Of a stretch of DNA of 32,000 bases, positions 8,903 to 31,941 are shown in pieces. Origin of the DNA: an uncultured Chloroflexia bacterium. Its GTDB lineage: Bacteria > Chloroflexota > Anaerolineae > Anaerolineales > Anaerolineaceae. Below the pieces are notes generated by a model that did no database searches, was not told where the DNA came from, and saw nothing but the letters and a program-made list of their open reading frames with translations. Location of the stretch: positions 2,730,001-2,762,000 of the forward strand of contig OY969938.1 of the NCBI GenBank assembly GCA_963704755.1, read 5' to 3'. The first letter of the stretch is position 1; every line of letters starts with the position of its first letter. Position numbers and translations under genes: made by a program.

Positions 8903-9045
8903 AAGCGGCTCAATCTAAATAAAGTGTCAGGTGTCATGGCGTGGTGTGGAGGGTGGGTGAAGGGCTCATTAATGATATTTGTGTTAGGCCAGATTGCTTT
9001 GTCGACCATACCGCGCCCATAACCACCATCTTTGTTCAAAATATC

Positions 9046-13166: not shown

Positions 13167-13513
13167 TCCAATGCTCCTTTTTTCCACGCATACATATGCG
13201 CTACCTCTAATAACACCAGGAAAACGAGCACGCCCAGTAAACCAGTAACCCCTAAGCTACGGGCGACAACTGCCCAGGAGACCACAAAAATCACTTCGAT
13301 GTCGAAAAGAATGAACAGGACTGCGATCAGGTAATAACGCACCGAAATACGTCGCCGGCCGGGGCCGTAAGGAACCATGCCCAATTCGTAAGGGGCAGAT
13401 TTTCGCTGGGTGGGCCGCCGGGGTCCGAACAGCATGCCCAACGAAATGGCGATCAAACCGACCAGGAAGGCCAGCACAAAGATAATCAAAAGTGGCAGGT
13501 ACTTCTCCAGCAT
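13157..13513 (-). CDS. nuoA: NADH-quinone oxidoreductase subunit A
   Basis: 118-aa protein with three TM helices, [12 protein letters not shown] and [17 protein letters not shown] (NuoA/ND3). First gene of the operon. Confidence 0.93.
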
Positions 13514-13555: not shown

Positions 13556-13584
13556 AGTATACCACAGGCAGGTTATTGGTGCAA
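13556..13584 (-). promoter_or_regulatory. Candidate sigma-70-type promoter of the nuo operon
   Basis: On the minus strand this reads TTGCAC (13584-13579), a 17-nt spacer, then TATACT (13561-13556), about 40 nt upstream of the nuoA ATG. Sequence match only. Confidence 0.45.
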
Positions 13585-13692
13585 TTTTTCACAAGATTGA
13601 TCATAAATTGTGACAATAACACTTTATTCTAACCCGTTCAGTACGTTTAATAAAGGCTTACCGCCTCAGGCTCCGGATTTTTTTAGGTTTAT

Positions 13693-15352
13693 GGCCGGCC
13701 AGCTCGGGTTTCCAACCCGAGGAAACGCCCGCCCGGCATACCTGGGGAGGGTAGCTCGAGTTTCCAACCCGAGGAAACGCCTGCCCGGCACATCCCCGGC
13801 TTTGAAAGCCGGGCTACGCTACCGGAGCGCCTGACCCGGCCAGACGCCTGGGTAGGGCGGTTTGCTGGTCGTTGGATCGGGCCGGTCTCCAGACCGAGCC
13901 CGCTCTTCAGCGCGGCCCGCCAGCACCACCTGGGGACGGCAGCTCGGGTTTCCTACCCGATGGTAACGCCTGCCCGGCGTTTTCCCGGCTTTGAAAGCCG
14001 GGCTACGCTACCGGAGCGCCTGACCCGGCCAGACGCCTGGGTAGGGCGGCTTGCTGGTCGTTGGATCGGGCCGGTCTCCAGACCGAGCCCGCTCTTCAGC
14101 GCGGCCCGCCAGCACCACCTGGGGACGGCAGCTCGGGTTTCCTACCCGAGGAAACGCCTGCCCGGCGTTTCCCGGCTTTGAAAGCCGGGCTACGCTACCG
14201 GAGCGCCGATCCTGCAAGACCCTTGGGGAGGGTAGCTCGGGTTTCCAACCCGAGGAAACGCCTGCCCGGCACATCCCCGGCTTTGAAAGCCGGGCTACGC
14301 TACAGAAGCGCCTGACCCGGCCAGACGCCTGGGTAGGGCGGTTTGCTGGTCGTTGGATCGGGCCGGTCTCCAGACCGAGCCCGCTCTTCAGTGCGGCCCT
14401 CCAGCACCGCCTGGGGAGGGTAGCTCGGGTTTCCAACCCGAGAGTACGCCTGCCCGGCATGTCCCGGCTTTGAAAGCCGGGCTACGCTACAGAAGCGCCT
14501 GACCCGGCCAGACGCCTGGGTAGGGCGGTTTGCTGGTCGTTGGATCGGGCCAGTCTCCAGACCGAGCCCGCTCTTCAGCGCGGCCCGCCAGCACCACCTG
14601 GGGACGGCAGCTCGGGTTTCCTACCCGATGGTAACGCCCGCCCGGCACATCCCCGGCTTTGAAAGCCGGGCTACGCTACCGGAGCGCCTGACCCGGCCAG
14701 ACGCCTGGGTAGGGCGGTTTGCTGGTCGTTGGATCGGGCCGGTCTCCAGACCGAGCCCGCTCTTCAGCGCGGCCCGCCAGCACCGCCTGGGGACGGCAGC
14801 TCGGGTTTCCAACCCGAGGAAACGCCTGCCCGGCACATCCCCGGCTTTGAAAGCCGGGCTACGCTACAGAAGCGCCTGACCCAGCCAGACGCCTGGGTAG
14901 GGCGGTTTGCTGGTCGTTGGATCGGGCCGGTCTCCAGACCGAGCCCGCTCTTCAGCGCGGCCCGCCAGCACCACCTGGGGACGGCAGCTCGGGTTTCCTA
15001 CCCGATGGTAACGCCCGCCCGGCGTTTTCCCGGCTTTGAAAGCCGGGCTACGCTACCGGAGCGCCTGACCCGGCCAGACGCCTGGGTAGGGCGGTTTGCT
15101 GGTCGTTGGATCGGGCCGGTCTCCAGACCGAGCCCGCTCTTCAGCGCGGCCCGCCAGCACCACCTGGGGAGGGTAGCTCGGGTTTCCAACCCGAGGGAAC
15201 GCCTGCCCGGCACATCCCCGGTTTTGAAAGCCGGGCTACGCTACCGGAACGCCGATCCTGCAAGACCCTTGGGGAGGGTAGCTCGGGTTTCCAACCCGAG
15301 AGAACGCCCGTCCGGCACATCCCCGGCTTTGAAAGCCGGGCTACGCTGCCCG
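13693..15352. repeat. Non-coding tandem array: 7 long units (187-189 bp), 2 short units (105 bp), a leading double H3 module and a terminal stub, each unit built from up to three hairpin modules in direct orientation
   Basis: The anchor GGCTTTGAAAGCC occurs at 13798, 13987, 14174, 14279, 14466, 14655, 14843, 15032, 15220 and 15325. Hairpins: H1 CCCGGCTTT-G-AAAGCCGGG, H2 CGGGCCGGTCT-CC-AGACCG(A)GCCCG, H3 CTCGGGTT-TCC-AACCCGAG. The 188-bp unit length is not a multiple of 3. Confidence 0.95.
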
Positions 15353-15417: not shown

Positions 15418-15454
15418 AACCAGCCGCCTGGATCGGGCGGCTGGTTACCTTTTT
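15418..15454 (+). terminator. Intrinsic-terminator-like hairpin plus T-run between the array and the aldo/keto reductase gene
   Basis: AACCAGCCGC(15418-15427)-loop-GCGGCTGGTT(15437-15446), followed by ACC and then TTTTT (15450-15454). It ends 16 nt before the ATG at 15471. Confidence 0.55.
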
Positions 15455-15470
15455 CAGAAAGGATCCTGAT

Positions 15471-16412
15471 ATGCAATATCGTAAACTGGGCAACAGCGGC
15501 GTGCAGGTGTCGGTTGTCGGCATTGGCGCCAACCGCTTTGGCAACCAGAAAGTTACCCAACAAGAAGTCAATCGTATCCTGGGTACGGCCCTCGACCTGG
15601 GCATCAACCACCTGGATACGGCGAACATCTACACCGGCGGCCATTCGGAAGAAACCATTGGACAGGCCCTGCGCGGCCGCCGCGACAGCTTTTTCATCGC
15701 CACCAAAGTCGGCCATCCCACCGGTGACGGACCCAACCAGAGCGGCGTCTCCCGCCAGAGTATTATGAATGGCGTCGAAGGCAGCCTGCAGCGCCTGCAA
15801 ACCGAGATGATCGACCTGTATTACATCCATCGCTGGGACCCGCTCACCCCCATCGAAGAATCCTTGCGGGCCCTGGACGATCTCGTCCGGGCTGGCAAGG
15901 TGCGCTACCTGGGCTGCTCCAATTTTGCCGCCTACCGCCTGGCGCATGCCAACCTGCTGGCAGAGGTCAAAGGCTGGACTCCCTTTGCCGTGATCCAGTC
16001 CGAGTACAGCCTGTTGGAGCGCTCGGTTGAGCAGGAGGTGCTGCCCTGCTGCCAGGAGTACAACATTGGCTTTGTGCCATACTTCCCCCTGGCCGGCGGC
16101 TTTTTGACCGGCAAATATCAGCGTAACCAGCCGGCCCCGGCCGGATCGCGCGGTGAAAACAGCCCCTACGTGCAGGGCTTCATGACCCCGGCCAACTTCG
16201 ACCTGATCGAAAGCCTGACGGCCTGGGCGCTGGAGCATGGCCACGCCTTGAACGAGCTGGCGATCGCCTGGCTGGCGGCTCAGCCCATGGTGTGCTCGGT
16301 CATCGCCGGCGTCACTCAGGTGGACCAGCTCCAGGCGAATGTCAAAGCGGCCGACTGGGTCTTGACCCCGGCTGAAATAGGCGAAGTGAACGCAATCCTG
16401 GAACGGGATTGA
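15471..16412 (+). CDS. Aldo/keto reductase family oxidoreductase
   Basis: 313 aa starting MQYRKLGNSGVQVSVVGIG, with GINHLDTANIYTGGHSEETIGQAL, FIATKVG and YIHRWD matching the AKR Asp-Tyr-Lys-His catalytic tetrad context. AAAGGA Shine-Dalgarno upstream. Confidence 0.92.
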   Translation: MQYRKLGNSGVQVSVVGIGANRFGNQKVTQQEVNRILGTALDLGINHLDTANIYTGGHSEETIGQALRGRRDSFFIATKVGHPTGDGPNQSGVSRQSIMNGVEGSLQRLQTEMIDLYYIHRWDPLTPIEESLRALDDLVRAGKVRYLGCSNFAAYRLAHANLLAEVKGWTPFAVIQSEYSLLERSVEQEVLPCCQEYNIGFVPYFPLAGGFLTGKYQRNQPAPAGSRGENSPYVQGFMTPANFDLIESLTAWALEHGHALNELAIAWLAAQPMVCSVIAGVTQVDQLQANVKAADWVLTPAEIGEVNAILERD

Positions 16413-17694: not shown

Positions 17695-17960
17695 GGGGAA
17701 ATAAACCACGGAGGGAAAATTAACCACGGAGGGAAAATTAACCACGGAGGCACGGAGGACACGGAGAGAAGATAAAGAGAAAAAGAAAGAAAAAAACGAG
17801 AAGAAAAATAGGTTCATCGAATGAACGATTGCCTAAAGCAGATCGGCCCGGTCTCCAGACCGGGCCGATCTGCTTTAGGCTATTATTCTTTCAAACAGTA
17901 ATTTTTCTTCTTTTCTCCGTGTCCTCCGTGCCTCCGTGGTTTATTTAGACAAATTTCCCC
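17695..17960. repeat. Composite palindromic element of about 265 bp (CACGGAG-octamer arms, purine-rich tracts, perfect 24-bp central stem)
   Basis: Left arm: AAATAAACCACGGAGG, then 2x GAAAATTAACCACGGAGG, then CACGGAGGACACGGAG and a purine-rich run. The right arm is the reverse complement without the 2x18-bp duplication. Centre at 17831-17880: GCCTAAAGCAGATCGGCCCGGTCT-CC-AGACCGGGCCGATCTGCTTTAGGC. Confidence 0.9.
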
Positions 17961-19502: not shown

Positions 19503-19642
19503 AACCGCGCAGAGGAAATTTGGCCACGAATAAATACGGATGGACACAGATAACGAAATCCAAATCTAAAACAATGAAATCCCACTCGGCACTTGGTGTT
19601 CATCCCCCCGGTATCCAATACTCACCCGATAATTCATTAAAT

Positions 19643-19716
19643 ACCCAAACACAGTAATACCCAAACACAGTAACACCCAAACACCGAAACACCCAAACAC
19701 CGAAACACCGAAAACC
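19643..19716. repeat. 16-bp C/A-rich tandem repeat, about 4.5 copies
   Basis: ACCCAAACACAGTAAT / ACCCAAACACAGTAAC / ACCCAAACACCGAAAC / ACCCAAACACCGAAAC / ACCGAAAACCC. The distal part has an 8-bp sub-period, (C/G)AAACACC. Confidence 0.9.
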
Positions 19717-19811
19717 CGTACCACAACCAGCCCTGACACTTGACACCTGGCCCGTGACACTTTCAACACCGAATCGCTGAAACACTGGATCACGATTCCC
19801 CGCCGCCCGCG

Positions 19812-22949: not shown

Positions 22950-22973
22950 TGACACAACACGCCTAAAAAGAGA

Positions 22974-23150
22974 TTAACCACGGAGACACGGAGGGCACGG
23001 AGAAGAAGAAGAGAAATGACTGTTTTAAAAGAATGAGTGCCTAAAGCAGATCGGCCCGGTCTCCAGACCGAGGCCGCTCTTATCGGCTGGTCAGTAGGAT
23101 TAACCTCGGAGGCACGAAGGCACGGAGCACGGAGAAAAGAAAGAGAAGAT
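22974..23150. repeat. Second CACGGAG-octamer composite element, with arms in direct orientation
   Basis: TTAACCACGGAGACACGGAGGGCACGGAG, purine-rich tract, GCCTAAAGCAGATCGGCCCGGTCTCCAGACCGAGGCCGCTCTTATCGG, then TTAACCTCGGAGGCACGAAGGCACGGAGCACGGAG and a purine-rich tract. The left part looks closely similar by eye to the reverse complement of the right arm of 17695-17960. Confidence 0.85.
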
Positions 23151-23290: not shown

Positions 23291-23884
23291 GTGGATCGAA
23301 CTTCCTTCCCCTTTCCGGGCCAGCGGATTGTCGTGGTCGGCGCGACCGGCACTGGAAAAACAACGCTGGCGGCTGCGCTGGCGCAGATCATCGGCGCGCC
23401 ACACGTCGAACTCGACTCGCTCTATTGGCAGGCGGGCTGGCAGGCGGTGCCACGCGAGGTGTTTTGTGAGCGCCTGCGGCTGGTGGTGGCAGGCCCGACC
23501 TGGGTTGTGGACGGGAATTATTCCTTTGCCCGCTCATTGACCTGGCATAATGCCGACACTCTGGTCTGGCTGGATTATCCCTGGTGGCTGAATTTTCACC
23601 GCCTATGGCAGCGCTCGCTGCGCCGCCTGTTCCGCCATGAGGTGTTGTGGAACGACAACCACGAATTGCTGAAAAATTTATTTTTCTCGCCCGAGCCGCT
23701 TTTCTTGTATATGTTTAAATCCCGCCGCAAGCAGCAGCGCAGCTACCCGGCCGCCCTGCTGGACCCGCAGTTCAGCCACCTCGTGCTGGTCCACCTGACC
23801 GGCCCGCGCCAGGCCGAAACCTGGCTGGCCTGCGTCCGGCAGGAATACGATACAGTCCTGGATAAGCACAAGGCTGTATTGTAA
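23291..23884 (+). CDS. P-loop NTPase, adenylate-kinase/topology-modulation-protein-like
   Basis: 197 aa with Walker A VVGATGTGKTTLA and the context HVELDSLYWQAGW...WVVDGNY. GTG start preceded by AAAGGAG. Confidence 0.75.
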   Translation: MDRTSFPFPGQRIVVVGATGTGKTTLAAALAQIIGAPHVELDSLYWQAGWQAVPREVFCERLRLVVAGPTWVVDGNYSFARSLTWHNADTLVWLDYPWWLNFHRLWQRSLRRLFRHEVLWNDNHELLKNLFFSPEPLFLYMFKSRRKQQRSYPAALLDPQFSHLVLVHLTGPRQAETWLACVRQEYDTVLDKHKAVL

Positions 23885-23900
23885 AATTTTTTATCTATTT

Positions 23901-23926
23901 GTAGCCGGTTTTCAAAGCCGGGCTAC
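23901..23926. repeat. Solitary copy of array hairpin H1
   Basis: GTAGCCGGTTTTCAAAGCCGGGCTAC differs by one base from the H1 variant CCGGTTTTGAAAGCCGGGCTAC in array unit 15217-15321. It starts 17 nt after the stop of the P-loop gene. Confidence 0.75.
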
Positions 23927-23959: not shown

Positions 23960-24018
23960 GAGAGTGTTTTTAAAGATTTTCGTGTGCGAAGCACACGAAA
24001 ATCTTTAAAAACACTCTC
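23960..24018. terminator. Perfect 28-bp-stem palindrome between convergent genes (likely bidirectional terminator)
   Basis: GAGAGTGTTTTTAAAGATTTTCGTGTGC-GAA-GCACACGAAAATCTTTAAAAACACTCTC. Confidence 0.7.
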
Positions 24019-24102
24019 AACTTCTTAACCAGCCTGAGCAGTTACCCTTAAATAACATCAGAGGCGCACCGATGTACGCCTCTGATGTAGAAATTACAGA
24101 AA

Positions 24103-29989: not shown

Positions 29990-30425
29990 CTGAGTGGGCC
30001 AAACCCGGCCAATGGTTAACCAACGCAATATCAACATTCGGGCGAAGGATTGGCCTTGTTGCCGGTTGAGGGCGCGGCTCTTAGCCCCTCTCCGAAGCGC
30101 TGTAGGGTGGATGAAGGGCTCATTTATTACGCCGGCTACCTGCATACCGGAAAGACCTGCGAATCCTTGCCCGTAACCCACCATCCGGATATAACGGTGG
30201 GTTGCGGAGAAAGAAAACCACGGAGCTCGGAGTGCATGGAGAAAAAAGTAGAGCCTTGTTGGGTTGAGCGGGTCATACGCAGCGAGTGGGTTACATAGCT
30301 TGAGCGAAACCCAACATCCGGGCGGATGGATTGGTCTCGTTTGCCGATTGTGGTTGAGGCTCTTAGCCCCTCTCCCGTTTCTGGAAGAGGGGTTGGGGTG
30401 AGGGCGAAGCGCCAACTTTCAGAAA
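29990..30425. repeat. Mosaic of small REP-like hairpins and direct repeats
   Basis: Direct repeats of about 63 bp at 30031-30093 and 30311-30375, both ending in GGCTCTTAGCCCCTCTCC. Hairpin ACCCACC...GGTGGGT near 30175-30205. A degenerate AACCACGGAGCTCGGAGTGCATGGAG near 30214-30240. Hairpin CCCCTCT (30367-73) / AGAGGGG (30386-92) followed by TTGGGGTGAGGG. Confidence 0.8.
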
Positions 30426-31838: not shown

Positions 31839-31897
31839 TAGATGCCGGCCAACCTAAGCGTTGGGGTTTGCAAATTGCCCTTATCGCCGGTTGGCGT

Positions 31898-31941
31898 TGA
31901 AGAGCGGGCTCGGCCGACAGAATGGAGGGACCGGCCCGATC
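31898..31941 (-). repeat. Inverted solitary variant of array module H2
   Basis: The reverse complement GATCGGGCCGGTC-CCTCCATTCTGTCGG-CCGAGCCCGCTCTTCA shares both flanks (13 and 16 nt) with the array sequence GATCGGGCCGGTC-TCCAGA-CCGAGCCCGCTCTTCA. The central segment differs. Confidence 0.7.

What the first reader, a model, noticed from the sequence alone, without database searches (positions are those of the whole stretch)
13693..15352. 1.65-kb tandem array of a three-hairpin unit of about 188 bp, between the complex I promoter and a divergent gene
Copies of GGCTTTGAAAGCC sit at 13798, 13987, 14174, 14279, 14466, 14655, 14843, 15032, 15220 and 15325, giving spacings of 189, 187, 105, 187, 189, 188, 189, 188 and 105. 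That makes 7 long units, 2 short units, a terminal stub and a leading pair of H3 modules. Each long unit carries three hairpins in the same orientation: H1 (CCCGGCTTT-G-AAAGCCGGG), H2 (CGGGCCGGTCT-CC-AGACCG-A-GCCCG) and H3 (CTCGGGTT-TCC-AACCCGAG). H3 overlaps a mutually exclusive GTTTCC/GGAAAC pairing. Units are near-identical by eye. The differences cluster at three spots: ACCGGA vs ACAGAA after H1, CCA..GAGGAAAC vs CCT..GATGGTAAC at H3, and CACATC vs CGTTTT in the linker. These variants are shuffled between units, as expected from recombination or gene conversion. The 188-bp period is not a multiple of 3, so the same DNA is read in rotating frames by the long ORFs on both strands, which argues against coding. 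There are no unique spacers, cas genes, transposase or terminal inverted repeats. The nearest precedents I know are BIME-2-type REP clusters in E. coli and the tandemly encoded sRNA array NsiR1 in Anabaena. This unit is larger and more structured than a REP, and I see no per-unit promoter or terminator. The array begins about 110 bp upstream of the predicted nuo -35 box, so it could insulate, structure or regulate the divergent nuo / aldo-keto reductase control region.
Basis: partly seen in the sequence, partly recalled or inferred. Interest (0 to 1): 0.85.

Follow-up and report, generated by a model that had tools for sequence, protein, structure and literature searches.

The report
Tandem cluster of REP-like palindromes
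The 1.66-kb array upstream of the complex I operon is real and non-coding, and is most likely a tandemly amplified cluster of small palindromic repeats like the REP/BIME clusters of E. coli, here in an Anaerolineae bacterium, so it is a fairly ordinary kind of repeat in an unusual place.

Summary
Positions 13693-15352 carry 7 long units (187-189 bp), 2 short units (104-105 bp), a leading extra H3 module and a truncated last unit. The long units are 97% identical. The array lies between nuoA (minus strand) and an aldo/keto reductase gene (plus strand).

It does not code for protein. All six frames have stops, and there are no Pfam hits and no protein homologues. It matches no Rfam family at threshold and no tRNA.

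The new point is that the unit is composite. H3 on the plus strand and H1 on the minus strand are homologous 23-nt elements, GTAG-CYCGGS-TTTCMAA-SCCGRG. They are 18/23 identical and two stem pairs differ by compensatory changes. Each H3-H1 pair is therefore an inverted dimer of GTAG-tagged REP-like palindromes. The H2 hairpin sits in an 82-nt self-folding element from a second family. That family also occurs three more times in the window and in other Chloroflexota MAGs.

This matches a BIME-2-like REP cluster that grew by unit duplication and was homogenised by recombination. The nearest relatives have no array at nuoA, and nothing links it to nuo function.

Genome-wide copy number and an associated RAYT gene could not be tested, because the source genome was not retrievable. 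I rate it a new member of a known kind, of modest interest.

The parts
13693..15352 (+). Whole tandem array. Module order is A A B C A B C A B c' A B C A B C A B C A B C A B C A B c' A B(truncated). GC content is 68.7%, against 56.9% for the rest of the window.
13693..13742 (+). Leading module A only (REP-a/H3 at 13699-21). Its tag is degenerate (CCAG) and it is more diverged than the interior copies.
13743..13930 (+). Long unit 1 (188 bp): REP-a 13751-13773 (+), REP-b 13795-13817 (-), C element 13849-13930.
13931..14119 (+). Long unit 2 (189 bp): REP-a 13939-13961 (GCAG tag), REP-b 13984-14006 (-), C element 14038-14119.
14120..14223 (+). Short unit (104 bp): REP-a 14128-14150, REP-b 14171-14193 (-). 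The 16-nt linker GATCCTGCAAGACCCT replaces the distal part of the inter-dimer linker (TGACCCGGCCAGACGCC) and the C element.
14224..14411 (+). Long unit 3 (188 bp): REP-a 14232-14254 (GTAG), REP-b 14276-14298 (-), C element 14330-14411.
14412..14598 (+). Long unit 4 (187 bp): REP-a 14420-14442, REP-b 14463-14485 (-), C element 14517-14598.
14599..14787 (+). Long unit 5 (189 bp): REP-a 14607-14629, REP-b 14652-14674 (-), C element 14706-14787.
14788..14975 (+). Long unit 6 (188 bp): REP-a 14796-14818, REP-b 14840-14862 (-), C element 14894-14975.
14976..15164 (+). Long unit 7 (189 bp): REP-a 14984-15006, REP-b 15029-15051 (-), C element 15083-15164.
15165..15269 (+). Short unit (105 bp): REP-a 15173-15195, REP-b 15217-15239 (-; C>T variant in the stem), 16-nt linker.
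15270..15352 (+). Terminal unit: REP-a 15278-15300, REP-b 15322-15344 (-), then a diverged and truncated B tail.
23901..23926 (+). Singleton member of the same REP-like family, GTAGCCGGTTTTCAAAGCCGGGCTAC. It lies 17 nt after the stop of gene 23291-23884, in a convergent intergenic region.
17819..17892 (+). Copy of the H2-core family (GATCGGCCCGGTCTCCAGACCG...), forming the centre of a composite palindromic element of about 250 bp (17699-17946).
23040..23082 (+). Copy of the H2-core family: GATCGGCCCGGTCTCCAGACCGAGGCCGCTCTT.
31894..31941 (-). Diverged copy of the H2-core family. It has the same flanks (GATCGGGCCGGTC...CCGAGCCCGCTCTTCA) and a different apical loop.
13556..13600 (-). nuo promoter region conserved with relatives. 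The -10 is TATACT (13556-13561) with an upstream TG, the -35 is TTGCAC (13579-13584), and a conserved TTGTGAAA motif lies at about 13587-13594. It is not part of the array; it marks the end of the ancestral intergenic DNA.
   Evidence: hexamers read; conservation
15418..15456 (+). Terminator-like 13-bp hairpin plus a T-run, ending about 14 nt before the aldo/keto reductase ATG. It flanks the array and its role is unknown.

Best explanation
The array is a BIME-2-like cluster of REP-type palindromes, that is, non-coding repeat DNA rather than a gene.

What the sequence shows:
- Each unit contains two homologous 23-nt elements of the form GTAG + 8-bp stem + 3-nt loop. REP-a (H3) is on the plus strand and REP-b (H1) is on the minus strand.
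- The GTAG tags face outwards and a conserved spacer of about 21 nt separates the two elements. This is a 'head-head' heterodimer.
- Dimers are joined by one of two linkers. One is short, 34-35 nt in all, ending in the 16-nt c' segment. The other is long, about 118 nt, and carries an 82-nt self-folding element that contains H2.
- H2 belongs to a second, independently dispersed repeat family.

What I infer:
- The whole dimer-plus-linker unit was duplicated head to tail about nine times. Unequal crossing-over or replication slippage could do this, and so could strand transfer by a REP-associated tyrosine transposase (RAYT), as shown in vitro for E. coli TnpAREP.
- Gene conversion has kept the copies homogeneous. 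This would explain why interior units are 97% identical, why edge copies are more diverged, and why variants are shuffled between units.
- The cluster sits just outside the conserved nuo promoter. It most likely has no unit-by-unit function.
- Any effect would be a by-product, as reported for BIMEs. Possibilities are 1.66 kb of GC-rich, hairpin-prone DNA acting as a spacer, a topological barrier or a gyrase site between nuo and the reductase gene.
For: Array anatomy.

H3(+) and H1(-) share GTAG-CYCGGS-TTTCMAA-SCCGRG:
- GTAG lies directly 5' of the stem in 10/10 H1(-) copies. For H3(+) the tag is GTAG in 5 copies, GCAG in 5 and CCAG in 1.
- The two consensus sequences are 18/23 identical.
- With the hairpin imposed, 93% of cells pair. 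Two pairs change on both sides (U-A to C-G, and G-C to C-G) between the two classes. No shuffle in 500 reached the observed covariation score.
- Each element folds as ssDNA at -8.1 and -9.4 kcal/mol, with z-scores of -5.4 and -4.7. The dimer folds as two separate hairpins.

A family member outside the array lies 17 nt after a gene's stop codon, which is the typical REP position.

The C element folds end to end. Its core recurs at 17840, 23040 and 31894-31941 in the window, and in five contigs of four other Chloroflexota MAGs.

Literature:
- Canonical REPs are hairpins with a 5' GT[AG]G at the foot (PMC6006769).
- BIME-2 consists of inverted y/z2 REPs with a short linker and s/l/r flanks, in multiple tandem copies that are well conserved within a locus and vary in number between strains. 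TnpAREP strand transfer can assemble tandem BIMEs (PMC3333891).
- GTAG REPs have 6-9 bp stems and 2-3 nt loops, and head-head heterodimers with conserved spacers are common. [quoted passage not shown] Evidence that it is not a gene:
- Stops occur in all six frames.
- There are no Pfam hits.
- There are no homologues among 5.8 billion protein clusters on either strand.
- No Rfam family reaches its gathering score and no tRNA is found.
- No promoter-like or terminator-like site lies inside the array.

There is no array at nuoA in relatives, and the nuo promoter is conserved up to about 130 nt from the ATG.
Against: - Two defining REP properties could not be tested: high genome-wide copy number and an associated RAYT gene flanked by the same REPs. 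The source genome could not be retrieved. Only one copy outside the array is visible in 32 kb.
- The stems are perfect palindromes, whereas E. coli TnpAREP needs a stem mismatch (PMC3333891).
- Half of the H3 tags read GCAG rather than GT[AG]G.
- REPs are predominantly found between convergent or co-directional genes, not divergent ones (PMC3733652).
- The A and B modules have no exact match in GTDB species representatives or JGI metagenomes, so the family's range beyond this genome is unknown.
- The orientation call rests on five discriminating positions (the tag and the loop centre), because the stems themselves are palindromic.
Confidence: 0.6

Rival explanations
1. The array is a tandem set of structured non-coding RNA units. 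It would be transcribed as one long precursor, on the plus strand from near 13620 to the terminator at 15418-15456, or on the minus strand towards nuo. The precursor would either be processed into about 188-nt RNAs or act as a long structured 5' leader of the reductase gene.
For: - A sigma-70-like match on the plus strand (13588-13617) points into the array.
- A strong terminator-like hairpin with a T-run lies just past the array's far end.
- A unit folds to -98 kcal/mol on the plus strand, with z = -2.6.
- One H1 variant (C>T at 15222) keeps a G-U pair on the plus strand.
Against: - No promoter-like or terminator-like site lies within any unit.
- The -35 of the plus-strand match is simply the reverse of a TGTGAA motif conserved upstream of nuoA in relatives that have no divergent gene.
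- Both strands fold about equally well (z = -2.6 and -1.9), as expected for palindromic DNA.
- Several variants break pairs: G>A in the H3 copy at 13751, G>A in the H2 copy at 14550, and G>T in three H3 copies.
- No Rfam family reaches threshold.
- No homologous locus was found anywhere.
Confidence: 0.12
2. The array is a selected DNA-level element. It would be a helically phased set of palindromic binding sites for a protein such as gyrase, a nucleoid-associated protein or a regulator. It would insulate or set the supercoiling of the nuo promoter region.
For: - H1-to-H1 spacings are 18.0, 17.8 and 10.0 helical turns at 10.5 bp per turn, for both unit sizes.
- The array lies immediately outside the conserved nuo promoter.
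- BIME-2 clusters bind gyrase and have been described as topological insulators in E. coli (introduction of PMC3333891).
Against: - The phasing could be coincidence, since there are only two independent unit lengths.
- Four related genomes run the same conserved nuo promoter without any array.
- No candidate binding protein is encoded nearby.
Confidence: 0.1
3. The H1-H3 dimers are decayed tRNA-Sec-like or tRNA-derived (SINE-like) sequences on the minus strand.
For: - Rfam tRNA-Sec gives weak matches on the minus strand over every dimer. The best is 27.5 bits (E = 0.0012 in a 251-nt search).
- In that alignment H1 is the anticodon arm with a UCA loop, the spacer is the variable arm and H3 is the T arm.
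Against: - The score is far below the gathering score of 47.
- The acceptor stem is only 4-5 bp with deletions, and the T loop is not canonical.
- ARAGORN finds nothing.
- The best hit depends on one spacer variant.
- Three adjacent GC-rich hairpins are enough to explain a weak cloverleaf score.
Confidence: 0.03
4. The array is an assembly artefact: a collapsed or expanded repeat, or a chimeric join.
For: No reads are available. Tandem repeats of 1.7 kb are hard to assemble from short reads.
Against: - The units differ at about 20 positions in a mosaic pattern, and edge copies are diverged. A simple assembler loop would not produce this.
- The sequence comes from a 4.87-Mb single contig.
- The exact copy number could still be wrong.
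Confidence: 0.04
5. The array encodes a repeat protein.
For: Long stop-free stretches exist, up to 251 codons on the plus strand.
Against: - Unit lengths of 187, 188 and 189 bp shift the frame from unit to unit.
- Every frame has stops.
- There are no Pfam domains.
- Neither strand's translation has any homologue.
Confidence: 0.01

Closest known systems
E. coli BIME-2 (tandem clusters of y and z2 REPs; Bachellier/Gilson nomenclature, reviewed in PMC3333891)
   Same: - Two related but non-identical GTAG-tagged palindromes lie in inverted orientation.
- A short conserved linker sits inside each pair, with alternative linker types between pairs.
- The whole unit is reiterated head to tail many times at one locus, and copies within the locus are nearly identical.
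- It is extragenic and non-coding.
   Different: - The palindromes here are shorter (23 nt against 30-40) and perfect rather than imperfect.
- The repeat period is 188 bp, because the inter-pair linker carries a nested 82-nt element of another family.
- It lies between divergent genes rather than in a 3' UTR or within an operon.
- No RAYT or REPtron could be checked.
- The phylum is different (Chloroflexota, class Anaerolineae).
GTAG-tagged REP families of Di Nocera et al. 2013 (PMC3733652), in particular Thermomicrobium roseum GTAG-23
   Same: - The architecture is GTAG, a 6-9 bp stem and a 2-3 nt loop.
- Head-head heterodimers have conserved spacers.
- 'Large REP clusters' are built from dimers reiterated in tandem together with flanking DNA.
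[quoted passage not shown]
   Different: - I could not compare sequences with GTAG-23, because the paper's figure is not held.
- T. roseum belongs to a distant class.
- Copy number in this genome is unknown.
Neisseria intergenic mosaic elements (dRS3/CGTC-1 repeats interleaved with RS repeats; mentioned in PMC3733652)
   Same: It is a mosaic intergenic array in which a small REP-like palindrome alternates with members of other repeat families, giving long composite periods.
   Different: - The tag is different (CGTC rather than GTAG).
- dRS3 elements serve as phage/IS integration targets (from my own knowledge, not tested here).
- The sequences are unrelated.
NsiR1 tandem sRNA array of Anabaena
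   Same: It is a head-to-tail array of structured units upstream of a gene.
   Different: NsiR1 copies each have their own promoter and terminator (from my own knowledge). Here no unit has either, and both strands fold equally well.

Membership tests
REP (repetitive extragenic palindrome), GTAG superfamily | A 20-40 nt sequence able to form a stem-loop. | tested here: met
   The elements are 23 nt, with an 8-bp stem and a 3-nt loop. As ssDNA they fold at -8.1 and -9.4 kcal/mol, and no shuffle in 200 folded as well.
REP (repetitive extragenic palindrome), GTAG superfamily | A conserved GT[AG]G tetranucleotide at the 5' foot of the hairpin. | tested here: met
   GTAG is present in 10/10 H1(-) copies. 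Among the 11 H3(+) copies, 5 have GTAG, 5 GCAG and 1 CCAG. The singleton has GTAG. GYAG variants are accepted in PMC3733652.
REP (repetitive extragenic palindrome), GTAG superfamily | An imperfect palindrome: a stem mismatch is needed by E. coli TnpAREP. | tested here: not met
   Most copies have perfect 8-bp stems. This requirement is known only for the E. coli enzyme (PMC3333891). Many GTAG families in PMC3733652 have perfect stems.
REP (repetitive extragenic palindrome), GTAG superfamily | High copy number, dispersed through extragenic space. | not testable with these tools
   The source genome is not retrievable. Within 32 kb there is one cluster and one singleton. Exact-pattern scans of GTDB representatives and JGI metagenomes gave 0 hits.
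REP (repetitive extragenic palindrome), GTAG superfamily | An associated RAYT/TnpAREP gene flanked by the same REPs (a REPtron). | not testable with these tools
   No Y1_Tnp domain was found among the 20 window ORFs scanned. The rest of the genome is unavailable.
BIME-2-type cluster | Two REP subtypes in inverted orientation separated by a short conserved linker. | tested here: met
   H3(+) and H1(-) are 18/23 identical with two compensatory pairs. The GTAG tags face outwards and the hairpin starts are 39-41 nt apart.
BIME-2-type cluster | Multiple tandem copies at one locus, well conserved within the locus, with alternative flanking linkers. | tested here: met
   There are ten dimers. Long units are 97% identical. 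There are two linker types, the short one (34-35 nt, with the 16-nt c' segment) and the long one (about 118 nt, with the 82-nt C element).
BIME-2-type cluster | Copy number varies between strains. | not testable with these tools
   No second strain is available. The nearest relatives share only 84-85% NuoD identity and lack the array.
Tandem sRNA gene array (NsiR1 type) | Each unit has its own promoter and terminator. | tested here: not met
   No promoter-like or terminator-like site lies inside 13693-15352. This was a consensus scan only.
CRISPR array | Short repeats separated by unique spacers, with cas genes nearby. | tested here: not met
   All inter-hairpin DNA is itself repeated. No cas domains were found in the window ORFs.
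tRNA-Sec (RF01852) | Scores at or above the Rfam gathering score, with a complete cloverleaf. | tested here: not met
   The best score is 27.5 bits against a gathering score of 47. The acceptor stem is 4-5 bp. ARAGORN finds nothing.
MITE | Terminal inverted repeats and a target-site duplication around each unit. | tested here: inconclusive
   The 188-bp unit as a whole has no TIRs. The nested 82-nt C element has complementary ends, folds end to end, and is bracketed by CCTGGG(T/G)AGGG direct repeats. That pattern fits either an insertion with duplication or a deletion between repeats.
Repeat-protein gene | One conserved reading frame across units. | tested here: not met
   Unit lengths are 187, 188 and 189 bp. 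Stops occur in all six frames. There are no protein homologues.

The most novel reading that the evidence does not exclude
The array is not merely amplified selfish DNA. It would be a lineage-specific, helically phased platform: all REP-like palindromes would lie on one face of the helix, since units of 105 and 188-189 bp equal 10.0 and 18.0 turns. This bacterium would have co-opted it as a topological barrier or protein-loading site that isolates the complex I promoter. Alternatively, it would be transcribed into a long multi-hairpin RNA. Either case would be a domesticated REP cluster with a defined regulatory role in a phylum where REP biology is unexplored.
Probability: 0.1. Interest if true: 0.6.

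Novelty: new member of a known kind. Interest (0 to 1): 0.3.

Why it matters
REP/BIME biology has been worked out almost entirely in Proteobacteria. A clear GTAG-tagged, BIME-2-like cluster in an Anaerolineae genome extends the known range of this repeat class. The only earlier Chloroflexi case I found in the literature is Thermomicrobium roseum.

It also shows how two unrelated repeat families can fuse into a long composite period that looks like something new.

In practice it flags a 1.66-kb locus that is likely to be misassembled or spuriously annotated, and likely to vary in length between strains, which could make it a useful typing marker.

It does not appear to reveal a new mechanism. 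The link to complex I looks positional rather than functional.

Tried and rejected
1. **Exact and gapped pattern scans for modules A and B.** The 24-mer of H1 plus its tail gave 0 hits in GTDB representatives and in JGI metagenomes. The gapped H3...H1 pattern gave 0 hits in metagenomes.
2. **Viral contig scans.** The H1 17-mer gave 18 single hits and the H2 18-mer gave 4 hits. The H2 hits sit inside what looks like coding sequence. The H1 hits match the unit over only the 17-18-nt palindrome, with no flanking similarity. Both were rejected as chance. H3 gave 0 hits.
3. **Retrieving the source genome.** Exact look-ups of NuoA, the reductase and the 100%-identical NuoD all returned 'not on record'. 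Cluster look-ups gave no names.
4. **Translating the array on both strands.** The aim was to catch spurious ORF calls on sister arrays anywhere in 5.8 billion protein clusters. There were no hits.
5. **blastn of two units against plasmids and phages.** No match.
6. **Rfam at permissive thresholds.** Only sub-threshold noise appeared: tRNA-Sec, Acido-Lenti-1, sX9, CRISPR-DR9.
7. **Search for GTAG-hairpin families or large-period repeats in relatives' loci.** None are related. L001 has an unrelated 160-bp local duplication.
8. **The plus-strand promoter idea.** It is weakened because its -35 is the reverse of a conserved nuo-side motif.
It exists only in units with the GGAAAC variant and is lost in the GGTAAC, GAGTAC, GGGAAC and GAGAAC variants. 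It is therefore not a conserved switch.
Full report
**1. The observation**

The region 13693-15352 is a genuine tandem array.
- Direct reading and regex mapping give ten H1 cores, with spacings of 189, 187, 105, 187, 189, 188, 189, 188 and 105 bp.
- TRF reports period 189 with 92-93% matches, and a 377-bp super-period with 95% matches.
- The seven long units have 97% mean column identity.
- The H2 core and the REP-like consensus occur 10 and 23 times in the window, against 0.1 and 0.00 expected by chance.
- The array is 68.7% GC, against 56.9% for the rest of the window.
- Its flanks are AT-rich, at about 39% GC.
- The flanking genes are nuoA (PF00507, minus strand, ATG at 13513) and an aldo/keto reductase (PF00248, plus strand, ATG at 15471).
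- The only factual slip in the finding is that the copy at 15220 reads GGTTTTGAAAGCC.

**2. Organism and locus history**

- NuoD has a 100% match on a 4.87-Mb contig that could not be retrieved. The next-best hits are 83-85% identical and are Anaerolineae, with Bellilinea, Longilinea and Thermanaerothrix named among them.
- Five loci from four of the closest relatives show nuoA preceded by only 110-220 bp and a co-directional gene, either DUF6541 or a sigma-70 factor gene. None has an array or a reductase gene there.
- The nuoA-proximal 130 nt of the window align with those relatives. The alignment includes a conserved TG-TATACT -10 and a TTGTGAAA..CCACCAA motif. Beyond that point the homology stops.
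- The array begins 180 nt from the ATG, just outside the conserved promoter. It is therefore a lineage-specific addition and not part of a conserved nuo control region.

**3. It is not a gene**

- Unit lengths of 187, 188 and 189 bp rotate the reading frame, and every one of the six frames has stops.
- The longest array ORFs have no Pfam domain.
- Translations of both strands have no homologue among 5.8 billion protein clusters.
- No Rfam family reaches its gathering score and ARAGORN finds no tRNA or tmRNA.
- Weak tRNA-Sec matches on the minus strand (best 27.5 bits against 47) come from three adjacent hairpins and a UCA-containing loop. The acceptor stem is only 4-5 bp.
- No promoter-like or terminator-like site lies inside the array.

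**4. Anatomy**

Aligning the units splits them into four modules:
- A: about 52 nt, containing H3.
- B: 37 nt, containing H1 and a 4-bp hairpin whose loop carries the ACCGG/ACAGA variants.
- C: 82 nt, containing H2. It follows a 17-nt linker segment (TGACCCGGCCAGACGCC) that separates it from B.
- c': a 16-nt linker that in the two short units takes the place of that segment and C.

The key new observation concerns H3 and H1.
- H3 read on the plus strand and H1 read on the minus strand are the same kind of element, GTAG-CYCGGS-TTTCMAA-SCCGRG.
- GTAG abuts the stem in all ten H1(-) copies. Of the eleven H3 copies, five have GTAG, five GCAG and one CCAG.
- The two consensus sequences are 18/23 identical.
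- With the hairpin imposed, 93% of cells pair, and two stem pairs differ between the classes by changes on both sides.
- Each element folds as ssDNA at -8 to -9 kcal/mol, far better than shuffled controls. The pair folds as two separate hairpins.

Each A-B pair is therefore an inverted 'head-head' heterodimer, with hairpin starts 39-41 nt apart. It is not two hairpins in the same orientation.

A further family member lies at 23901-23926, 17 nt past the stop of an unrelated gene in a convergent intergenic region.

**5. The third hairpin belongs to another family**

- The 82-nt C element folds end to end through complementary termini.
- It is bracketed by CCTGGG(T/G)AGGG direct repeats.
- Its core, GATCGGSCCGGTC...CCGAGSCCGCTCTT, recurs at about 17840, about 23040 and 31894-31941 in the window.
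- A 22-mer of the core is found in five contigs of four other Chloroflexota MAGs (CFX4, CFX8, CHL1, Dive96_bin10.74), beside unrelated genes.
- Modules A and B, by contrast, have no exact match in GTDB representatives or JGI metagenomes.

**6. Array dynamics**

- Interior units are nearly identical. The first A module and the last B module are the most diverged.
- Two two-nucleotide variant sites occur in all four combinations.
- Both points are what unequal exchange and gene conversion within a tandem array would produce.

**7. Comparison with known systems**

- Canonical REPs are hairpins with a 5' GT[AG]G at their foot (PMC6006769).
- E. coli BIME-2 consists of two REP subtypes in inverted orientation, with a short linker and alternative flanking linkers. 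They are repeated in tandem, well conserved within a locus and variable in number between strains. TnpAREP strand transfer can assemble such tandems in vitro (PMC3333891).
- Di Nocera et al. describe GTAG REPs with 6-9 bp stems and 2-3 nt loops, and frequent head-head heterodimers with conserved spacers. They describe large clusters made of dimers reiterated in tandem with flanking DNA.
- They also report GTAG REPs in Chloroflexi (T. roseum GTAG-23), clustered in large blocks at a few loci (PMC3733652).
- The array meets every structural criterion I could test.
- It does not meet the 'imperfect stem' criterion, which is known only for the E. coli enzyme.
- Its position between divergent genes is the minority location for REPs.
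- Genome-wide copy number, an associated RAYT and strain polymorphism could not be tested.

**8. Mechanism**

Shown:
- The composite anatomy.
- The inverted homology of H3 and H1.
- A second dispersed family nested in the linker.
- Mosaic variants.
- Absence of the array from orthologous loci.

Inferred:
- A REP dimer and its linker, which had acquired or already contained an H2-type element, was amplified head to tail. The mechanism would be unequal recombination or slippage, or a RAYT.
- Gene conversion then homogenised the copies.
- I think any function is incidental.
- The plus-strand promoter-like site that points into the array uses as its -35 the reverse of the conserved nuo-side TGTGAA motif, so it is weak evidence for transcription.
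- The spacing of 10.0 and 18.0 helical turns is the one feature that hints at a DNA-level role. I carry it as the 'novel case' at about 10%.

**9. Verdict**

The best explanation is a BIME-2-like cluster of GTAG-tagged REP-type palindromes with a nested second repeat element (confidence about 0.6). It is a new member of a known kind, with interest of 0.3.

Noticed in passing
window 17699-17946: A composite palindromic element of about 250 bp lies after the GGDEF gene. Its outer arms are built of AACCACGGAGG/CACGGAG repeats (38-nt arms, 95% complementary). Its 36-nt inner arms centre on an H2-type hairpin. A near-perfect TTGACA-17-TATAAT promoter follows it. A partial second copy lies at 22973-23140.
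   Followed up: partly
L004 5134-5155, L005 6458-6479, L006 5593-5614, L007 1135-1156, L008 6308-6329: The H2 core GATCGGGCCGGTCTCCAGACCG is conserved in four other Chloroflexota MAGs (CFX4, CFX8, CHL1, Dive96_bin10.74), beside unrelated genes. In CFX4 and CFX8 it occurs as an inverted pair forming a long hairpin. A roughly 30-nt motif kept across genera suggests either a mobile element or a functional site.
   Followed up: partly
window 13585-13600 (minus strand); L001 and L002 upstream of nuoA: The motif TTGTGAAA(A/T)TT(G/A)C(A/C)CCAA lies just upstream of the nuo -10 and is conserved between the window and relatives at 84-85% NuoD identity. It contains a TGTGA half-site reminiscent of CRP/FNR-type operators and may be a regulator site for complex I.
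   Followed up: no
window 14128-14215 and every H1-H3 dimer, minus strand: Weak tRNA-Sec-like Rfam matches of 17-27.5 bits, against a gathering score of 47. In these, H1 is a 6-bp anticodon stem with a UUUCAAA loop (UCA). I judge this to be coincidence among three adjacent hairpins.
   Followed up: yes
window 15418-15456: A 13-bp GC-rich hairpin plus a T-run on the plus strand ends about 14 nt before the aldo/keto reductase start codon. It shares TGGATCGGGC with the H2 core. It could be a terminator for transcripts leaving the array or an attenuator of the reductase gene.
   Followed up: no
window 19639-19717: A tandem repeat of a 16-nt unit, ACCCAAACACAGTAAC, in 4.4 copies. It lies between the TetR-family gene and the PhoU-like/PHO4 phosphate transporter genes.
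   Followed up: no
window 23960-24018 and 24055-24088: A perfect 28-bp-arm palindrome and a second 15-bp-arm hairpin lie in the same convergent intergenic region as the REP-like singleton. Intergenic DNA in this genome is unusually rich in hairpins.
   Followed up: no
window 30059-30093 / 30341-30375 and 8947-8973 / 30101-30127: Further short dispersed repeats of 27-35 nt at 86-89% identity, including one copy inside the nuo operon region. They may belong to still other repeat families.
   Followed up: no
L001 2781-3127: A relative carries a 160-bp tandem duplication in 2.2 copies. It reiterates the 3' end of an oppC-like gene together with its terminator hairpin. It is unrelated in sequence to the array.
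   Followed up: partly
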